Origin: a virus
IMG/VR virus record: IMGVR_UViG_3300029955_000013
Location: 1-64,000 of that record
Length of the DNA stretch: 64,000 bases
Strand: one strand, 5' to 3'
The first letter of the stretch is position 1. Each line of letters starts with the position of its first letter. The position numbers were made by a program, and so were the translations under genes. The notes under the pieces are model-generated. The model was given only the letters and a program-made list of their open reading frames with translations. It made no database searches and was not told the DNA's origin. Of the stretch, positions 50,253-62,114 are shown one piece after another.

Positions 50253-50324
50253 TGTACTATAGGGTAGTGGTAGCCCGTCGGCATCAACAGCCGAAGATCT
50301 CAGGTTCGATTCCTGGTAGTGCAA
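50253..50324 (+). tRNA. Atypical tRNA with CAA anticodon (Leu) on Gln-like body
   Basis: TGTACTA/TAGTGCA-A; TCGGC-AT CAA CA-GCCGA; short variable loop. Confidence 0.6.
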
Positions 50325-50330
50325 CAATTT

Positions 50331-53873: not shown

Positions 53874-55085
53874 ATGGTTTCTAAATTCGCAATGGACGAC
53901 GCTTATGCTGTACAGGCAGACATTATAGAAGGTTGGTACACGAAGTACAAGTCCATGGATTTGCCTAACGGCTTCAAGAGGGTGTTGTATAGCTTTTCTA
54001 AAAGCGGCGTATCTGTTGCTCTCGGCAGGAATGAAAAATACGGGTATTTCATCTGCGCTTACGGTCAGGGCGAATATTCTTTCGTGATGACAGAAGCTGA
54101 TAGCGAGAACATTCCTGCCGAGGAAGTCTTTGACGTTAAAACTAAGGAAGGATTTATAAAGCATTTCGAGAGGTTTTGCAGGGAGTATAATTACTTGGAT
54201 TTCGAGGTAGTCGATAATGTAAGAGCCTATGATGACACGACGCTTTTCTGCCCGGCCGGGATGCAGAAGTATAAGAACGTGTTTAAGGCGGAGTGCCCAG
54301 AGGATGCTGACAAGGCCGTAAGGCGTCAGTACATGAAGCTAAATGAGAGTGTTATAGCAAATATTCAACCTTGCATAAGGATGAACGATTTGGATGATAT
54401 TGGTGACGGCACGCATTTGCTTTACTTCAACATGATGGGCCTTTTTGCATTTAGGACTCCTGGCTTTGGTGTTAGGCATGCTGTAAAATTTTGGCTTGAT
54501 TTCCTTGAGACGATCGGCTTGAAACCGGATCTTGTTACTGTCCACCCAGACAAGCAAGATTGGATATTTTATTACCAAGATGAAACGGTAGAGCAGAAAT
54601 ATGTAGACGATTTTCTTCAGTATAACGGGCCTGATTTCCTGCTCGATCCAGATTGCACGTGGACTGATGGCGAGATTGGAGGTTACTGTACGGAGTTCTA
54701 CATAAAGGACGTGGAGATAGGCAACATTGTGAATCCGCTTGGTAACTGCATAGATTGCGGCTTTGGCCTCGAGAGGATTCTGTATATACTCAATAATGAG
54801 TTGACTATCGCAACCGATTTGGACACGCTTAAGGAAACCATACTTAAGATATTAGACAGCGGTTACACGCCATCTAATCTCAAACAGGGCTATGTTTTAA
54901 GGAAGCTGTTGAGGGAGTTCGTCAAGAAGGGCGGCGAGATGGATCACGAGGTGTTTCTCGACGAGAAGGATAGGCAGCGAAAAATATATGACAGGTGGCT
55001 GCTGCTCAAGGATAAGCACAAGGACAAGAGCCCTGAATGGTGGTATGATACGCACGGGATTGATTTGAAAATGATAAACGGTTAA
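53874..55085 (+). CDS. alaS: Minimal alanyl-tRNA synthetase-like protein (no editing or C-Ala domains)
   Basis: D.TTLFCPAGMQ, QPCIR.NDLD.IG...H..YF.M.G, GYCTEF, IDCGFGLERI, PSN..QGYVLRKLLR, YDTHG. Confidence 0.85.
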   Translation: MVSKFAMDDAYAVQADIIEGWYTKYKSMDLPNGFKRVLYSFSKSGVSVALGRNEKYGYFICAYGQGEYSFVMTEADSENIPAEEVFDVKTKEGFIKHFERFCREYNYLDFEVVDNVRAYDDTTLFCPAGMQKYKNVFKAECPEDADKAVRRQYMKLNESVIANIQPCIRMNDLDDIGDGTHLLYFNMMGLFAFRTPGFGVRHAVKFWLDFLETIGLKPDLVTVHPDKQDWIFYYQDETVEQKYVDDFLQYNGPDFLLDPDCTWTDGEIGGYCTEFYIKDVEIGNIVNPLGNCIDCGFGLERILYILNNELTIATDLDTLKETILKILDSGYTPSNLKQGYVLRKLLREFVKKGGEMDHEVFLDEKDRQRKIYDRWLLLKDKHKDKSPEWWYDTHGIDLKMING

Positions 55086-55088
55086 TTT

Positions 55089-55406
55089 ATGACCAAAGCG
55101 CCTTTTGACGTCTTCTTTACTTTTGATATAAGTTTGAATATTGTGTCTTATGATTCGGATAGTGATACAATGAATTGGTTTAGCCGGTCTGTTCGTAATC
55201 AGATTAAGCTTCACGAGGAAGTTGGAAAGAAGATGGAAGACAGAGGCTATCTTTATGGCTGGTATGAAATATTGGAGACTGATTTTAACTTTCTCACACC
55301 GGCTAAAGAGTCGATCCAGGATAAAAAGGTAAAAGTAAAAGTCGGCGCCTATAAGGATGAACAGTTTATGTATTCTAAGAAAGAATTGGAAAAAATGGTA
55401 AGTTGA
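55089..55406 (+). CDS. Hypothetical protein
   Basis: Clean ORF. Confidence 0.55.
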   Translation: MTKAPFDVFFTFDISLNIVSYDSDSDTMNWFSRSVRNQIKLHEEVGKKMEDRGYLYGWYEILETDFNFLTPAKESIQDKKVKVKVGAYKDEQFMYSKKELEKMVS

Positions 55407-55416
55407 TAAGTAAGAT

Positions 55417-55492
55417 GGGCGATTACTCCCTCACCCTTATAAGGTGTTGAAAGGATAGTTGGTACAGTTCGGTTCGATCCCGAAATCGCCTA
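55417..55492 (+). tRNA. Non-canonical tRNA-Ile(TAT) lacking a conventional D-arm
   Basis: GGGCGAT/ATCGCCT-A acceptor, CACC-CT TAT AA-GGTG, T-arm TTCGG-TTCGATC-CCGAA; D-loop-like AGTTGGTA lies after the anticodon arm. Confidence 0.7.
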
Positions 55493-55494
55493 CA

Positions 55495-55971
55495 ATGATT
55501 TACGATGAATTGTGTGGAGAGATTTATGACGAGGTGATAAAGTTTAATATTTTTAAACAGTACCTCGAGAATTACGATGTAGATTTGCCTAAGTTAAGAG
55601 TTGAGACGCTCGATTTTTGTTCACAGACAGTCGATGGCAGGGATGCGGATTATATGGCCAGGATTGCCGCGGCAAAGCCGAAGATTTATTTCGCTACTCT
55701 TATAAAGAGCAAGATACTTGGCGAGCTCGTTAAAATCAAGAAACGTCAAGATTTACTCGAGAAATGGCAGGCATCAGGCATATTGGATGGCTTACACCAG
55801 GGAGTTAACACTAATATTGTTGCATTGATGGAAAGCCAGTCGGAGCAGAGTATTACTGAAAACAGGAGCGCTGAGTTCTATTGGGACACAGTAAGGCTTC
55901 CGCTCGTAAGGAGTGTGTTAATTGATTCTTTAATCAAAGAAGCAGAGCATGACCAGGAAGAAAAGGTATGA
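55495..55971 (+). CDS. Protein with C-terminal segment resembling the N-terminus of T4-like major capsid proteins
   Basis: LLEKW..SG.LDGL.......ALMESQ...LPLVR; true start 55495. Confidence 0.55.
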   Translation: MIYDELCGEIYDEVIKFNIFKQYLENYDVDLPKLRVETLDFCSQTVDGRDADYMARIAAAKPKIYFATLIKSKILGELVKIKKRQDLLEKWQASGILDGLHQGVNTNIVALMESQSEQSITENRSAEFYWDTVRLPLVRSVLIDSLIKEAEHDQEEKV

Positions 55972-56787: not shown

Positions 56788-56860
56788 AGGCCTGTATATC
56801 ATCGGTTAGATAGCCATGCTGATAACATGGAAGCAGTTGGTTCGACTCCAACCTGGCCTA
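56788..56860 (+). tRNA. tRNA-Ile(GAT)
   Basis: CCATG-CT GAT AA-CATGG; AGGCC/GGCCT-A. Confidence 0.88.
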
Positions 56861-58368: not shown

Positions 58369-58447
58369 GGTGAGGTGATGGAATTGGCAGACATTGGGGA
58401 TAGGATTCCCCTGCGCAAGCGTGGAGGTTCGAGTCCTCCCCTTACCA
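58369..58447 (+). tRNA. Leu-type tRNA body with aberrant 6-nt anticodon loop (TAGGAT)
   Basis: TGATGGAATTGGCAGACAT D-arm, variable arm GCGCAAGCGT, A73; anticodon unreadable. Confidence 0.55.
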
Positions 58448-58462
58448 CTTAAATTTAACGTT

Positions 58463-59707: not shown

Positions 59708-59780
59708 GGCACTGTAGACCAACGGGAGAGTCAACGGCTTTAAACCCCGTCAAGTGTCGGTTCGAGTCCGACCAGTGCTA
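59708..59780 (+). tRNA. tRNA-Leu(TAA), short variable loop
   Basis: ACGGC-TT TAA AC-CCCGT; GGCACTG/CAGTGCT-A. Confidence 0.8.
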
Positions 59781-59794
59781 CAAAAAATAAAAGC

Positions 59795-60820: not shown

Positions 60821-60893
60821 GGTCCTGTAGCCCAATGGCAGAGGCGATAGGCTTAGAACCTATTTAGTGTCAGTTCGAGTCTGACCAGGACTA
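60821..60893 (+). tRNA. tRNA-Leu(TAG), short variable loop
   Basis: ATAGG-CT TAG AA-CCTAT; GGTCCTG/CAGGACT-A. Confidence 0.88.
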
Positions 60894-60908
60894 CTTTAAA
60901 ATGAGCAA

Positions 60909-61570: not shown

Positions 61571-61642
61571 AATCGAGTACCTCAGAGGCCAGAGGCCAGA
61601 GGGATCGACGGAAAGTCGGTGGTTCGACTCCACTCTCGATTT
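61571..61642 (+). pseudogene. tRNA-like RNA with intact acceptor, D and T arms but no anticodon stem
   Basis: AATCGAG/CTCGATT; CCTC/GAGG; GGTGG-TTCGACT-CCACT; CAGAGG repeated 3 times. Confidence 0.6.
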
Positions 61643-62012: not shown

Positions 62013-62114
62013 GCCCGGTTGGCGAAACTGGTAGACGCACTGCCTTGTACTTTTAACGAGGAACAAGGTGGCAGCGCCCGAAAGGGTGTGGGAGTTCGAA
62101 TCTCCCATCGGGTA
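62013..62114 (+). tRNA. tRNA-Leu with 25-nt anticodon loop; Leu(GAG) if 62048-62065 is removed
   Basis: Canonical Leu D-arm, long variable arm, A73; CTGCC/GGCAG stem encloses TTG[18 nt]AGGT. Confidence 0.7.

What the first reader, a model, noticed from the sequence alone, without database searches (positions are those of the whole stretch)
55417..55492. Topologically rewired tRNA-Ile(UAU): D-loop relocated after the anticodon arm
Seen: perfect acceptor and T arms, anticodon loop CT TAT AA, and IleRS-type features (C4-G69, A37, A38, A73). Only TACTCCC lies between the acceptor and the anticodon stem. The 'variable region' TGAAA GGAT AGTTGGTA CAG contains a textbook D-loop (AGTTGGTA), preceded by GGA (55453-55) that can pair with TCC (55427-29). 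Inference: the D-stem 5' strand and D-loop have moved 3' of the anticodon arm (connectivity 9->22, 44->10, 21->48, positions close together in the L-shape), which would keep the G18G19/T-loop elbow. UAU anticodons are rare in bacteria (established) and would read AUA without TilS/lysidine. ATA codons look frequent in this phage's genes (not counted) and occur twice in the leader peptide. Standard tRNA scanners would probably miss this gene.
Basis: partly seen in the sequence, partly recalled or inferred. Interest (0 to 1): 0.85.

Follow-up and report, generated by a model that had tools for sequence, protein, structure and literature searches.

The report
Rewired-core isoleucine tRNA family in phages
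This 76-base gene belongs to a widespread, previously unannotated family of phage isoleucine tRNAs in which part of the D arm sits after the anticodon arm, an arrangement kept in place by compensatory mutations and missed by standard tRNA finders.

Summary
Window 55417-55492 has a 7-bp acceptor stem, a T arm and a CUUAUAA anticodon loop. Only 7 nt lie where the D arm belongs, and a D-loop-like AGTTGGTA lies just before the T arm. ARAGORN (default) and the Rfam tRNA model both miss it.

It is not a one-off. Carriers include at least 77 cultured Streptomyces phages, Rhodococcus phage Peregrin, crAss-like phages and a few bacterial genomes. All share the layout, and almost none are annotated.

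- **Helix:** TCC/GGA takes 14 forms and is fully Watson-Crick in 119 of 122.
- **Tertiary pair:** the base at D-loop position 15 covaries with the base before the T stem (A-U 83, G-C 31), like the canonical 15-48 pair.
- **Identity:** anticodons are UAU 95, GAU 18, CAU 8, UAC 1. The discriminator is always A.
- **Demand:** in this phage ATA is the second most used codon (61% of Ile codons) and aligns with Ile in homologues.

Most likely this is a working AUA-reading tRNA-Ile with a permuted core. Charging and decoding are untested. Seven unchecked first-reader notes flagged look-alikes on other DNA. I found no published description.

The parts
55417..55423 (+). acceptor stem, 5' strand (GGGCGAT, positions 1-7)
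   Evidence: Pairs 7 of 7 with 55485-55491. All 7 pairs covary in alignment A1.
55424..55426 (+). linker TAC: U8 and A9 equivalents plus a position-22 equivalent
   Evidence: T8 and A9 are invariant in 26 sequences. The family consensus is TAT.
55427..55429 (+). TCC, 5' strand of the 3-bp 'D-stem' helix (positions 23-25 by geometry)
   Evidence: Covaries with 55453-55455. Three of 3 pairs show double changes, and 119 of 122 are fully Watson-Crick.
55430..55430 (+). C, position-26 equivalent
   Evidence: C in 121 of 122 members.
55431..55447 (+). anticodon arm: U27-U43 mismatch, 4-bp stem CACC/GGTG, loop CTTATAA (anticodon TAT at 55438-55440)
   Evidence: The stem covaries. The 27-43 pyrimidine mismatch is conserved: TT 111, CT 6, TC 5.
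55448..55452 (+). TGAAA connector from the anticodon stem to the helix 3' strand
   Evidence: GAAA is invariant in the 26 sequences of A1, none of which was retrieved by the GAAA-requiring pattern alone in the first scan. NGAAA was required by the patterns behind the 122-member set.
55453..55456 (+). GGA, 3' strand of the helix (positions 10-12 by geometry), plus T (position-13 equivalent)
   Evidence: Covaries with 55427-55429. The T is invariant.
55457..55464 (+). D-loop-like AGTTGGTA (positions 14-21 equivalents: A14, G15, G18, G19, U20, A21)
   Evidence: A14, G18 and G19 are invariant. Position 15 covaries with 55467-type positions.
55465..55467 (+). CAG, equivalents of 46-48; the last base is the partner of position 15 (here G15-G48)
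   Evidence: CA is invariant. Family 15-48 counts are A-T 83, G-C 31, other 8.
55468..55484 (+). T arm TTCGG-TTCGATC-CCGAA
   Evidence: Five bp in the window. The stem covaries and is 99.2% paired in A1.
55485..55492 (+). acceptor stem 3' strand ATCGCCT plus discriminator A73; no encoded CCA
   Evidence: The discriminator is A in 122 of 122.

Best explanation
The element is a functional phage tRNA-Ile(UAU) of a conserved non-cloverleaf architecture. Its secondary structure is a three-way junction. The arms are the acceptor stem, the T arm, and a long arm in which a 3-bp helix (TCC/GGA here) sits below the anticodon stem. A 12-nt single strand between that helix and the T arm carries a D-loop sequence. 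In canonical numbering the order is 1-9, 22-26, 27-43, 44-45 plus AAA, 10-13, 14-21, 46-48, 49-73. That is an internal circular permutation of segment 10-45. Both natural continuities of the D stem are kept: 22-25 runs into 26 and the anticodon stem, and 10-13 runs into the D loop. The usual core contacts can therefore still form (U8-A14, 15-48, G18/G19 with the T loop), giving an L-shape. Shown: the secondary structure, its conservation and covariation, the restriction to Ile anticodons, the placement in tRNA arrays, and the very heavy use of ATA=Ile codons by this phage. Inferred: RNase P and 3' processing with CCA addition, charging by the host IleRS, decoding of AUA without lysidine, and the 3D fold.
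For: The three pattern scans that found relatives left the helix letters free. On alignment A1 (26 sequences), 97.9% of cells pair against 63% in shuffles. The covariation score is 0.868 against 0.19 in shuffles and at most 0.20 when partners are slid. The D-stem-like helix shows double changes in 3 of 3 pairs. RNAalifold gives the same fold on its own. The position 15-48 equivalents read A-U 83, G-C 31, other 8, and this pair ranks among the top mutual-information pairs outside the helices. A covariance model separates members (74-100 bits; window 88.8) from canonical tRNAs (33 bits or less). The most anticodon-neutral scan recovered only the 21 loci (19 UAU, 1 GAU, 1 CAU) and no new member. 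Overall the anticodons are UAU 95, GAU 18, CAU 8, UAC 1, with A73 in 122 of 122. Members lie in phage tRNA arrays, often directly beside tRNA-Ile(GAU) and tRNA-Lys, or together with tRNA-Arg(UCU). No canonical tRNA-Ile(UAU) was found in those loci. In this record the tRNAs are grouped by amino acid, and the element lies just before two tRNA-Ile(GAU) genes. ATA is 42.2 per 1000 codons and 61% of Ile codons. ATA positions in the AlaRS-like gene align with Ile in 119 homologues, two of the columns at 116 of 119. No other UAU tRNA exists in the 83.9-kb record.
Against: There is no RNA, processing or aminoacylation evidence. The fold of this single sequence is no more stable than shuffles (z -0.28). 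Several E. coli IleRS determinants listed in PMC9976931 are absent: U12-A23 is A12-U23 here, and C29-G41 is A29-U41 here. C4-G69 is not conserved in the family. The window member has G15-G48 rather than a standard 15-48 pair. The 3D argument is geometric reasoning from memory of the canonical structure, not a model. The patterns required GAAA, GGT and CA, so the Ile restriction partly reflects how members were found. Arg-anticodon versions of the scaffold carry GGA instead.
Confidence: 0.8

Rival explanations
1. It is a conserved tRNA mimic that is not used for decoding. It might act as a decoy or substrate for a host tRNA-targeting nuclease or modification enzyme, or be a processing or regulatory element that merely keeps an Ile-type anticodon loop.
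For: The non-canonical core scores only 27-31 bits or nothing with the Rfam tRNA model. The Ohtaekwangia copy lies in an island with an RNA ligase and an HD/kinase-like protein. This phage also carries an RNA-ligase-sized ORF in its tRNA region and other irregular tRNA-like genes.
Against: The family uses all three Ile-box anticodons and almost nothing else. U33, A37 and A73 are invariant, and the acceptor/T minihelix is intact. Members take the AUA slot in near-complete phage tRNA sets. This phage has an extreme ATA demand. A decoy would not need to track Ile-box anticodons this closely.
Confidence: 0.1
2. The gene is permuted only at the DNA level. RNA cutting and re-ligation, for example by a phage RNA ligase, would restore a canonical cloverleaf tRNA.
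For: Moving the 12 nt GGATAGTTGGTA to just after position 9 gives a cloverleaf that ARAGORN accepts at default settings. RNA ligase genes occur near some copies.
Against: The ARAGORN pass is not specific, since 348 of 960 arbitrary cut-and-paste variants also pass. Restoration would need three cuts and three joins. No bulge-helix-bulge or other splice signal was seen. The connectors TAT, NGAAA and CAN are conserved as if they function in the mature RNA.
Confidence: 0.04
3. ARAGORN's low-threshold model is correct: a 93-nt cloverleaf tRNA at 55401-55493 with acceptor AGTTGAT/ATCGCCT, D arm AGTA-[11 nt]-TACT and a 20-nt variable region.
For: It is found at -ps90 and -ps80. Another phage (L016) has a 93-nt tRNA(UAU) with a true long variable arm.
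Against: Its acceptor has a mismatch and a G-U pair, and it overlaps the stop codon of ORF 55089-55406. Its connectors are irregular. Relatives have unrelated upstream sequence, and some start directly at the end of the preceding tRNA (L041, L059, L075). The L016 phage shows no portal similarity.
Confidence: 0.02
4. It is a decaying pseudo-tRNA left by a rearrangement in a fast-evolving tRNA array.
For: The same record holds other irregular tRNA-like genes at 61571-61642, 62013-62114 and 71834-71919.
Against: Family-wide conservation with compensatory changes appears in phages of Actinomycetota and Bacteroidota hosts and in environmental phages. All stems are intact in the window copy.
Confidence: 0.02

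Closest known systems
Canonical bacterial and phage tRNA-Ile(UAU), e.g. Mycoplasma mobile tRNA-Ile(UAU) (PMC3575796)
   Same: It has a UAU anticodon in a CUUAUAA-type loop, A37, A73 and a 7/5 acceptor/T branch. Its presumed job is reading AUA without lysidine.
   Different: The canonical form has a normal D arm between positions 9 and 26 and a 4-5 nt variable loop. Here the D-stem strands are swapped in order and the D loop lies just before the T arm.
D-armless mitochondrial tRNAs, e.g. tRNA-Ser(AGY) (PMC4013460, PMC9427863)
   Same: Only a short connector lies between the acceptor and anticodon stems, and standard scanners have trouble finding them.
   Different: Mitochondrial forms lack the D stem, the D loop and the G18G19/T-loop lock. 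This family keeps a covarying D-stem-like helix, a D-loop motif and a canonical T loop. It occurs in phages of bacteria.
Permuted tRNA genes of Cyanidioschyzon merolae type (my own knowledge, not checked here)
   Same: The gene order of tRNA segments differs from the canonical order.
   Different: In those genes the 3' half precedes the 5' half, and processing through a circular intermediate gives a normal mature tRNA. Here the 5' and 3' ends are normal, and the permutation is internal and presumably kept in the mature RNA.
allo-tRNAs with 8/4 or 9/3 acceptor/T branches (PMC5389517, PMC7609411)
   Same: They are non-canonical tRNAs found in metagenomes and phages, and UAU is a common anticodon in the 8/4 type.
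   Different: allo-tRNAs have altered branch lengths, a long variable arm and serine-type identity. This family is 7/5, has no variable-arm stem, and is tied to Ile anticodons.
Viral tRNA-like structures such as the TYMV TLS (my own knowledge; TLSs are mentioned in PMC9976931)
   Same: A tRNA-shaped fold is built with strand connectivity that differs from tRNA.
   Different: TLSs are 3' ends of RNA-virus genomes with a pseudoknotted acceptor and are not decoders. This is a stand-alone 76-nt gene in tRNA arrays with a normal acceptor stem.

Membership tests
Canonical cloverleaf tRNA (Rfam RF00005) | 7-bp acceptor stem with an unpaired discriminator | tested here: met
   55417-23 pairs with 55485-91, followed by A55492. 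All 7 pairs covary.
Canonical cloverleaf tRNA (Rfam RF00005) | T arm: 5-bp stem and 7-nt TTCRANN loop | tested here: met
   TTCGG-TTCGATC-CCGAA. T54, T55, C56 and A58 are invariant.
Canonical cloverleaf tRNA (Rfam RF00005) | Anticodon arm with a 7-nt loop, U33 and purine 37 | tested here: met
   Loop CTTATAA. The stem is 4 bp plus a U-U mismatch.
Canonical cloverleaf tRNA (Rfam RF00005) | D stem-loop between position 9 and the anticodon stem | tested here: not met
   Only 7 nt (TACTCCC) lie there. The partner strand and D-loop motif lie 3' of the anticodon arm.
Canonical cloverleaf tRNA (Rfam RF00005) | Score at or above the family's gathering threshold, or detection by ARAGORN at default settings | tested here: not met
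   No RF00005 hit even at E<=10. ARAGORN default finds nothing. Relatives score 27.4-30.8 bits against a 29-bit gathering score, or are not hit.
Canonical cloverleaf tRNA (Rfam RF00005) | Aminoacylated and used on the ribosome | not testable with these tools
   No RNA data were available.
tRNA-Ile isoacceptor | NAU anticodon (GAU, UAU or CAU/lysidine) | tested here: met
   TAT at 55438-40. The family has NAU in 121 of 122.
tRNA-Ile isoacceptor | Discriminator A73 | tested here: met
   A55492. A in 122 of 122.
tRNA-Ile isoacceptor | Other bacterial IleRS determinants (PMC9976931): C4-G69, U12-A23, C29-G41, G16, U20, U21, A37, A38 | tested here: inconclusive
   The window has C4-G69, U20, A37 and A38, but A12-U23 and A29-U41. 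The equivalents of G16 and U21 are T16 and A21 here, so those two are not met. C4-G69 occurs in only 64 of 122 members.
tRNA-Ile isoacceptor | Its codon means isoleucine in the genome that carries it | tested here: met
   ATA positions of the AlaRS-like gene align mostly with Ile in 119 homologues.
tRNA-Ile isoacceptor | Charged by IleRS | not testable with these tools
   Needs an in vitro or in vivo assay.
   The window scores 88.8 bits. Members score 74-100 bits and canonical tRNAs 33 bits or less. The window sequence was part of the seed alignment.
D-armless mitochondrial-type tRNA | D arm replaced by an unpaired connector, with no D-loop/T-loop lock | tested here: not met
   The connector pairs with a downstream strand with covariation. 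The GG motif and canonical T loop are conserved.
allo-tRNA | 8/4 or 9/3 acceptor/T branch and a long variable arm | tested here: not met
   The branch is 7/5, and the 20-nt region has no conserved stem of its own.
Permuted tRNA gene (3' half before 5' half) | The acceptor 3' strand and T arm lie upstream of the acceptor 5' strand | tested here: not met
   The acceptor strands are at the two ends in normal order.

The most novel reading that the evidence does not exclude
Rewired-core tRNAs are a general alternative tRNA architecture spread among phages, not an Ile curiosity. Versions with Arg anticodons exist: ACG in Microbacterium phage A3Wally and in L135, and UCU and CCU 79-nt forms in L033 and L065. 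One Val (UAC) version was also seen. All of these are clients of class Ia synthetases. The Arg versions carry A at the position-20 equivalent, the main ArgRS determinant, whereas Ile versions carry U. The architecture may be selected because it stays chargeable and decodes normally while escaping host tRNA-targeting nucleases or host modification enzymes.
Probability: 0.3. Interest if true: 0.95.

Novelty: new variant of a known kind. Interest (0 to 1): 0.9.

Why it matters
If these RNAs are charged and decode, the tRNA L-shape can be built in nature from a different strand topology, a three-way junction with an internally permuted D domain. That bears on how synthetases, EF-Tu, RNase P, modification enzymes and the ribosome recognise tRNA.

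It also means the tRNA sets of many phages are under-counted. At least 77 cultured Streptomyces phages, Rhodococcus phage Peregrin, crAss-like phages and more than 100 IMG/VR contigs are affected, so analyses of codon usage against tRNA content are biased for Ile codons.

The family occurs in phages with laboratory hosts, so the hypothesis can be tested directly. A naturally divergent scaffold could also be useful as an orthogonal tRNA, and for asking whether phage tRNAs change shape to evade tRNA-directed defence.

Tried and rejected
- **Protein route to related phages.** Neighbour proteins (105 aa and the 403-aa AlaRS-like protein) have no relatives in IMG/VR. The metagenome scan returned mostly bacterial AlaRS-related genes without tRNAs.
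- **BLAST.** The window element and its 1.4-kb surroundings gave nothing useful against INPHARED.
- **First exact pattern.** With AGTTGGTA it gave only a chance coding hit, L002.
- **'Un-permuting' test.** ARAGORN accepts the rearranged sequence, but the test is not specific because 36% of arbitrary rearrangements also pass.
- **Sequencing runs.** No RNA holder was listed. Contigs of four peat runs were laid and are identical to the window, so there is no microdiversity to exploit.
- **L016.** Its 93-nt tRNA(UAU) with a long variable arm was considered as a homologue. It was rejected because it has a normal D arm and its phage shows no portal similarity.
- **ARAGORN's 93-nt model.** Rejected; see rival explanations.
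- **L046 and L049.** These pattern hits are not members.
- **Literature.** Six searches and two papers read found no description of this architecture. The library lacks most subscription journals, so this is not proof of novelty.

Full report
**Setting**

The window is part of an 83.9-kb linear IMG/VR virus record, about 41% complete by CheckV. It comes from peat metagenomes. From 43.4 kb onward the record carries a tmRNA and 27 ARAGORN-detectable tRNAs, all on one strand and largely grouped by amino acid. The tRNAs are interspersed with small synthetase-like genes. One is a 403-aa AlaRS-like protein just upstream of the finding (PF01411).

The element fills the 88-nt gap between ORF 55089-55406 and an ORF starting at 55495. 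It precedes two tRNA-Ile(GAU) genes at 56788 and 58150.

**Observation**

The sequence is exactly as described. It has a 7-bp acceptor stem, then 7 nt (TACTCCC). Next comes an anticodon arm with loop CTTATAA, then 20 nt containing GGA and AGTTGGTA, then a canonical T arm and discriminator A.

ARAGORN default, Rfam at gathering score and Rfam at E<=10 do not report it. ARAGORN at lowered thresholds proposes a different 93-nt cloverleaf starting at 55401. The single-sequence fold contains the TCC/GGA helix but is no more stable than shuffles. Contigs assembled independently from three other peat runs cover the element without a single difference. The sequence is therefore real, but that population offers no variation to analyse.

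**Finding relatives**

Protein-based routes failed. I then scanned IMG/VR with DNA patterns describing only the unusual order: anticodon loop, then a D-loop motif, then the T loop. The letters of the proposed helix were left free.

- The first relaxed pattern gave 45 loci, about the number expected by chance. Of these, 16 had the candidate's full architecture with exactly 7 nt between the acceptor and anticodon stems.
- A pattern without any anticodon constraint gave 21 loci, all true members.
- Dropping the GAAA requirement added no new member.

Pooled, there are 122 distinct sequences in 141 loci.

The same pattern in one-genome-per-species prokaryotes found five true copies. These are two Actinomycetota MAG contigs with 19-23-tRNA arrays, a Saccharibacteria MAG, a Bacteroidota MAG and the isolate Ohtaekwangia koreensis. 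In the order of Ohtaekwangia only 1 of 121 genomes searched has it. There it lies in an island with an RNA ligase and an HD/kinase-like gene. This pattern suggests a mobile origin.

BLAST of members against cultured phages found the family in at least 77 Streptomyces phages (131-136 kb, rich in tRNAs), among them Samistivirus EGole and Coruscantvirus Coruscant. It also found Rhodococcus phage Peregrin, crAss-like cr130_1, a Kehishuvirus and bajarodcaudo virus 1. In the rows shown it is unannotated, with two exceptions. EGole labels it 'tRNA-Leu' although the loop reads CTGATAA, which is GAU. In Coruscant a CDS start overlaps it.

**Structure**

I used a MAFFT alignment of 26 distinct sequences (A1). 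On it the proposed structure pairs 97.9% of cells, against 63% in column shuffles and at most 49% when partners are slid. The covariation score is 0.868 against 0.19.

| Measure (A1) | Observed | Shuffled | Partners slid |
|---|---|---|---|
| Cells forming a standard pair | 97.9% | 63.3% | 34-49% |
| Covariation score | 0.868 | 0.193 | 0.10-0.20 |

In the 122-member set it takes 14 forms, including CCC/GGG, CTC/GAG, ACC/GGT, CGG/CCG, CCG/CGG, CAC/GTG, CGC/GCG and CCA/TGG. It is fully Watson-Crick in 119. RNAalifold predicts the same structure without being given it.

Several residues are invariant in A1:
- the equivalents of U8, A9 and A14
- G18 and G19
- G53, T54, T55, C56 and A58
- a C at position 26
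- GAAA after the anticodon stem, and CA before the T stem

The purine after A14 (position 15) covaries with the base just before the T stem: A-U 83, G-C 31, other 8. This is the signature of the canonical 15-48 tertiary pair. The window copy is one of the few with G-G.

A covariance model built from A1 scores members at 74-100 bits and ordinary tRNAs at 33 bits or less. The Rfam tRNA model gives members 27-31 bits or nothing.

**What this means structurally (inference)**

The 5' strand of the helix runs directly through one C into the anticodon stem, as positions 22-25 and 26 do in a normal tRNA. The 3' strand runs directly through one T into the D-loop motif, as positions 10-13 do.

The RNA therefore reads 1-9, 22-43, 44-45 plus AAA, 10-21, 46-48, 49-73. 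This is a circular permutation of the internal segment 10-45. A tandem duplication followed by two deletions could produce it.

From my knowledge of the canonical fold, positions 8-9, 21-22, 45-46 and 10 lie close together around the D stem. The three changed backbone links therefore look feasible, and the conserved tertiary partners argue that the L-shape is kept. I could not model this.

**Identity and function**

- **Anticodons:** UAU 95, GAU 18, CAU 8, UAC 1. The discriminator is A in all 122.
- **Context:** members sit in tRNA arrays, often flush against tRNA-Ile(GAU) and before tRNA-Lys. In small phages they are paired with tRNA-Arg(UCU), the classic rare-codon combination. None of the 25 loci examined has a canonical tRNA-Ile(UAU).
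- **Codon demand:** in this phage ATA is 42.2 per 1000 codons, 61% of Ile codons and the second commonest codon.
- **Meaning of ATA:** its positions in the AlaRS-like gene align mainly with Ile in 119 homologues.
- **No alternative:** no other UAU tRNA is present in the record.

The simplest reading is a phage-supplied AUA decoder. Charging by IleRS is inferred. Some E. coli IleRS determinants listed in PMC9976931 are present (A73, A37, A38, U20, and C4-G69 in this copy). Others are not (12-23, 29-41).

**Rivals**

- A pseudogene is excluded by family-wide compensatory change.
- ARAGORN's 93-nt model depends on upstream sequence that is not conserved. That sequence is occupied by the preceding tRNA in several relatives.
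- RNA-level re-ordering to a cloverleaf would need three cuts and three joins. It is not suggested by any signal, and the ARAGORN 'un-permute' pass is unspecific.
- A non-decoding mimic cannot be excluded without RNA data. It fits the anticodon restriction and codon-usage link less well.

**Beyond Ile**

- L135:7912-7987 carries ACG. It has a relative in Microbacterium phage A3Wally (MZ150783 93609-93685) that scores 66.5 bits with the Ile-family model. The two differ by compensatory changes: CAC/GTG against ACC/GGT.
- L033:1681-1759 (UCU) and L065:35-113 (CCU) are two 79-nt genes that share a related layout, with helix CAG/CTG against CGA/TCG.
- All four have A after the GG, the position-20 equivalent. 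That is the main ArgRS determinant in bacteria (PMC9976931). The Ile forms have U there, but the patterns required it.

These are few cases and were only partly followed up.

**Prior knowledge**

Seven unchecked first-reader notes of this scan describe look-alikes on other DNA, and one describes this same stretch in another window. Six full-text searches found no description of such a topology. A 2020 review of non-canonical tRNAs (PMC7609411) has no occurrence of 'phage' or 'permuted', and a 2023 survey of viral structured RNAs (PMC10690425) did not describe it either. Subscription literature was not searchable.

**Verdict**

I file it as a new structural variant of tRNA with a large, mostly unannotated membership. 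Function as a charged decoder is likely (about 0.8) but unproven.

Noticed in passing
L135:7912-7987 (-); L222:586-662 (= MZ150783.1 93609-93685); L033:1681-1759 (-); L065:35-113 (-): These genes have the same rewired topology but arginine anticodons: ACG twice, UCU and CCU. All have A at the position-20 equivalent. They are unannotated and missed by ARAGORN. The Ile-family model gives 66.5, 44.4 and 33 bits for the A3Wally, L135 and L065 copies.
   Followed up: partly
window 61571-61642: A 72-nt tRNA-like gene with perfect acceptor, D and T arms. The anticodon-arm region does not pair. ARAGORN misses it.
   Followed up: no
window 62013-62114: A class-II Leu-like tRNA gene whose anticodon stem CTGCC/GGCAG encloses a 25-nt loop. 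The loop looks like an 18-nt insertion that extends the stem.
   Followed up: partly
G000:C1:71834-71919 (beyond the window's end): An 86-nt odd Ser-like tRNA gene with an oversized anticodon loop, missed by ARAGORN at default settings.
   Followed up: no
window 50253-50325, 59708-59781, 60821-60894: Three tRNAs with Leu anticodons (CAA, UAA, UAG) are only 73-74 nt. They lack the long variable arm expected of bacterial tRNA-Leu.
   Followed up: no
window 58369-58448: ARAGORN calls this 80-nt tRNA Pro(AGG), but it has a Leu-like D arm and an ambiguous anticodon loop (GGGG-ATAGGAT-TCCCC can be read with a 6- to 8-nt loop).
   Followed up: no
whole record G000: Codon usage is extreme. ATA is the second commonest codon, and AGG is the dominant Arg codon (15.5 per 1000 against 5.1 or less for the others). 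No tRNA-Arg was found in the 83.9 kb held.
   Followed up: partly
L016:2616-2708: A 93-nt tRNA(UAU) with a normal D arm, a 22-nt variable region with a 4-bp stem and an encoded CCA, in a 193.7-kb tmRNA-bearing phage. It is a class-II-like tRNA with an Ile anticodon.
   Followed up: partly
L077:4384-6198 (Ohtaekwangia koreensis): Beside the Asn-[rewired Ile]-Lys-Pro-His tRNA cluster lie an HD plus AAA_33 kinase-like protein, an RNA ligase (PF09414) and a WYL/WCX regulator. This looks like a tRNA-repair or tRNA-backup island.
   Followed up: partly
L078:1495-1571 (NC_055791.1 75265-75341): Streptomyces phage EGole annotates its copy as tRNA-Leu. The loop CTGATAA gives anticodon GAU (Ile). In EGole and Coruscant the gene follows a small nucleotidyltransferase gene.
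   Followed up: partly
window 53874-55085: The 403-aa AlaRS-like protein is a catalytic core (PF01411) with a roughly 95-aa N-terminal extension. Its relatives are a large family of about 278-aa 'alanine--tRNA ligase-related' proteins, found in bacteria such as Rhizobium and in many metagenome contigs.
   Followed up: partly
L065 (IMGVR_UViG_3300033070_001106): This 10.8-kb contig has a tmRNA, a CUA-anticodon tRNA, pairs of normal and over-long (84-90 nt) tRNAs for Asn, Ile and His, a CAU member of the rewired family and the CCU rewired form.
   Followed up: no
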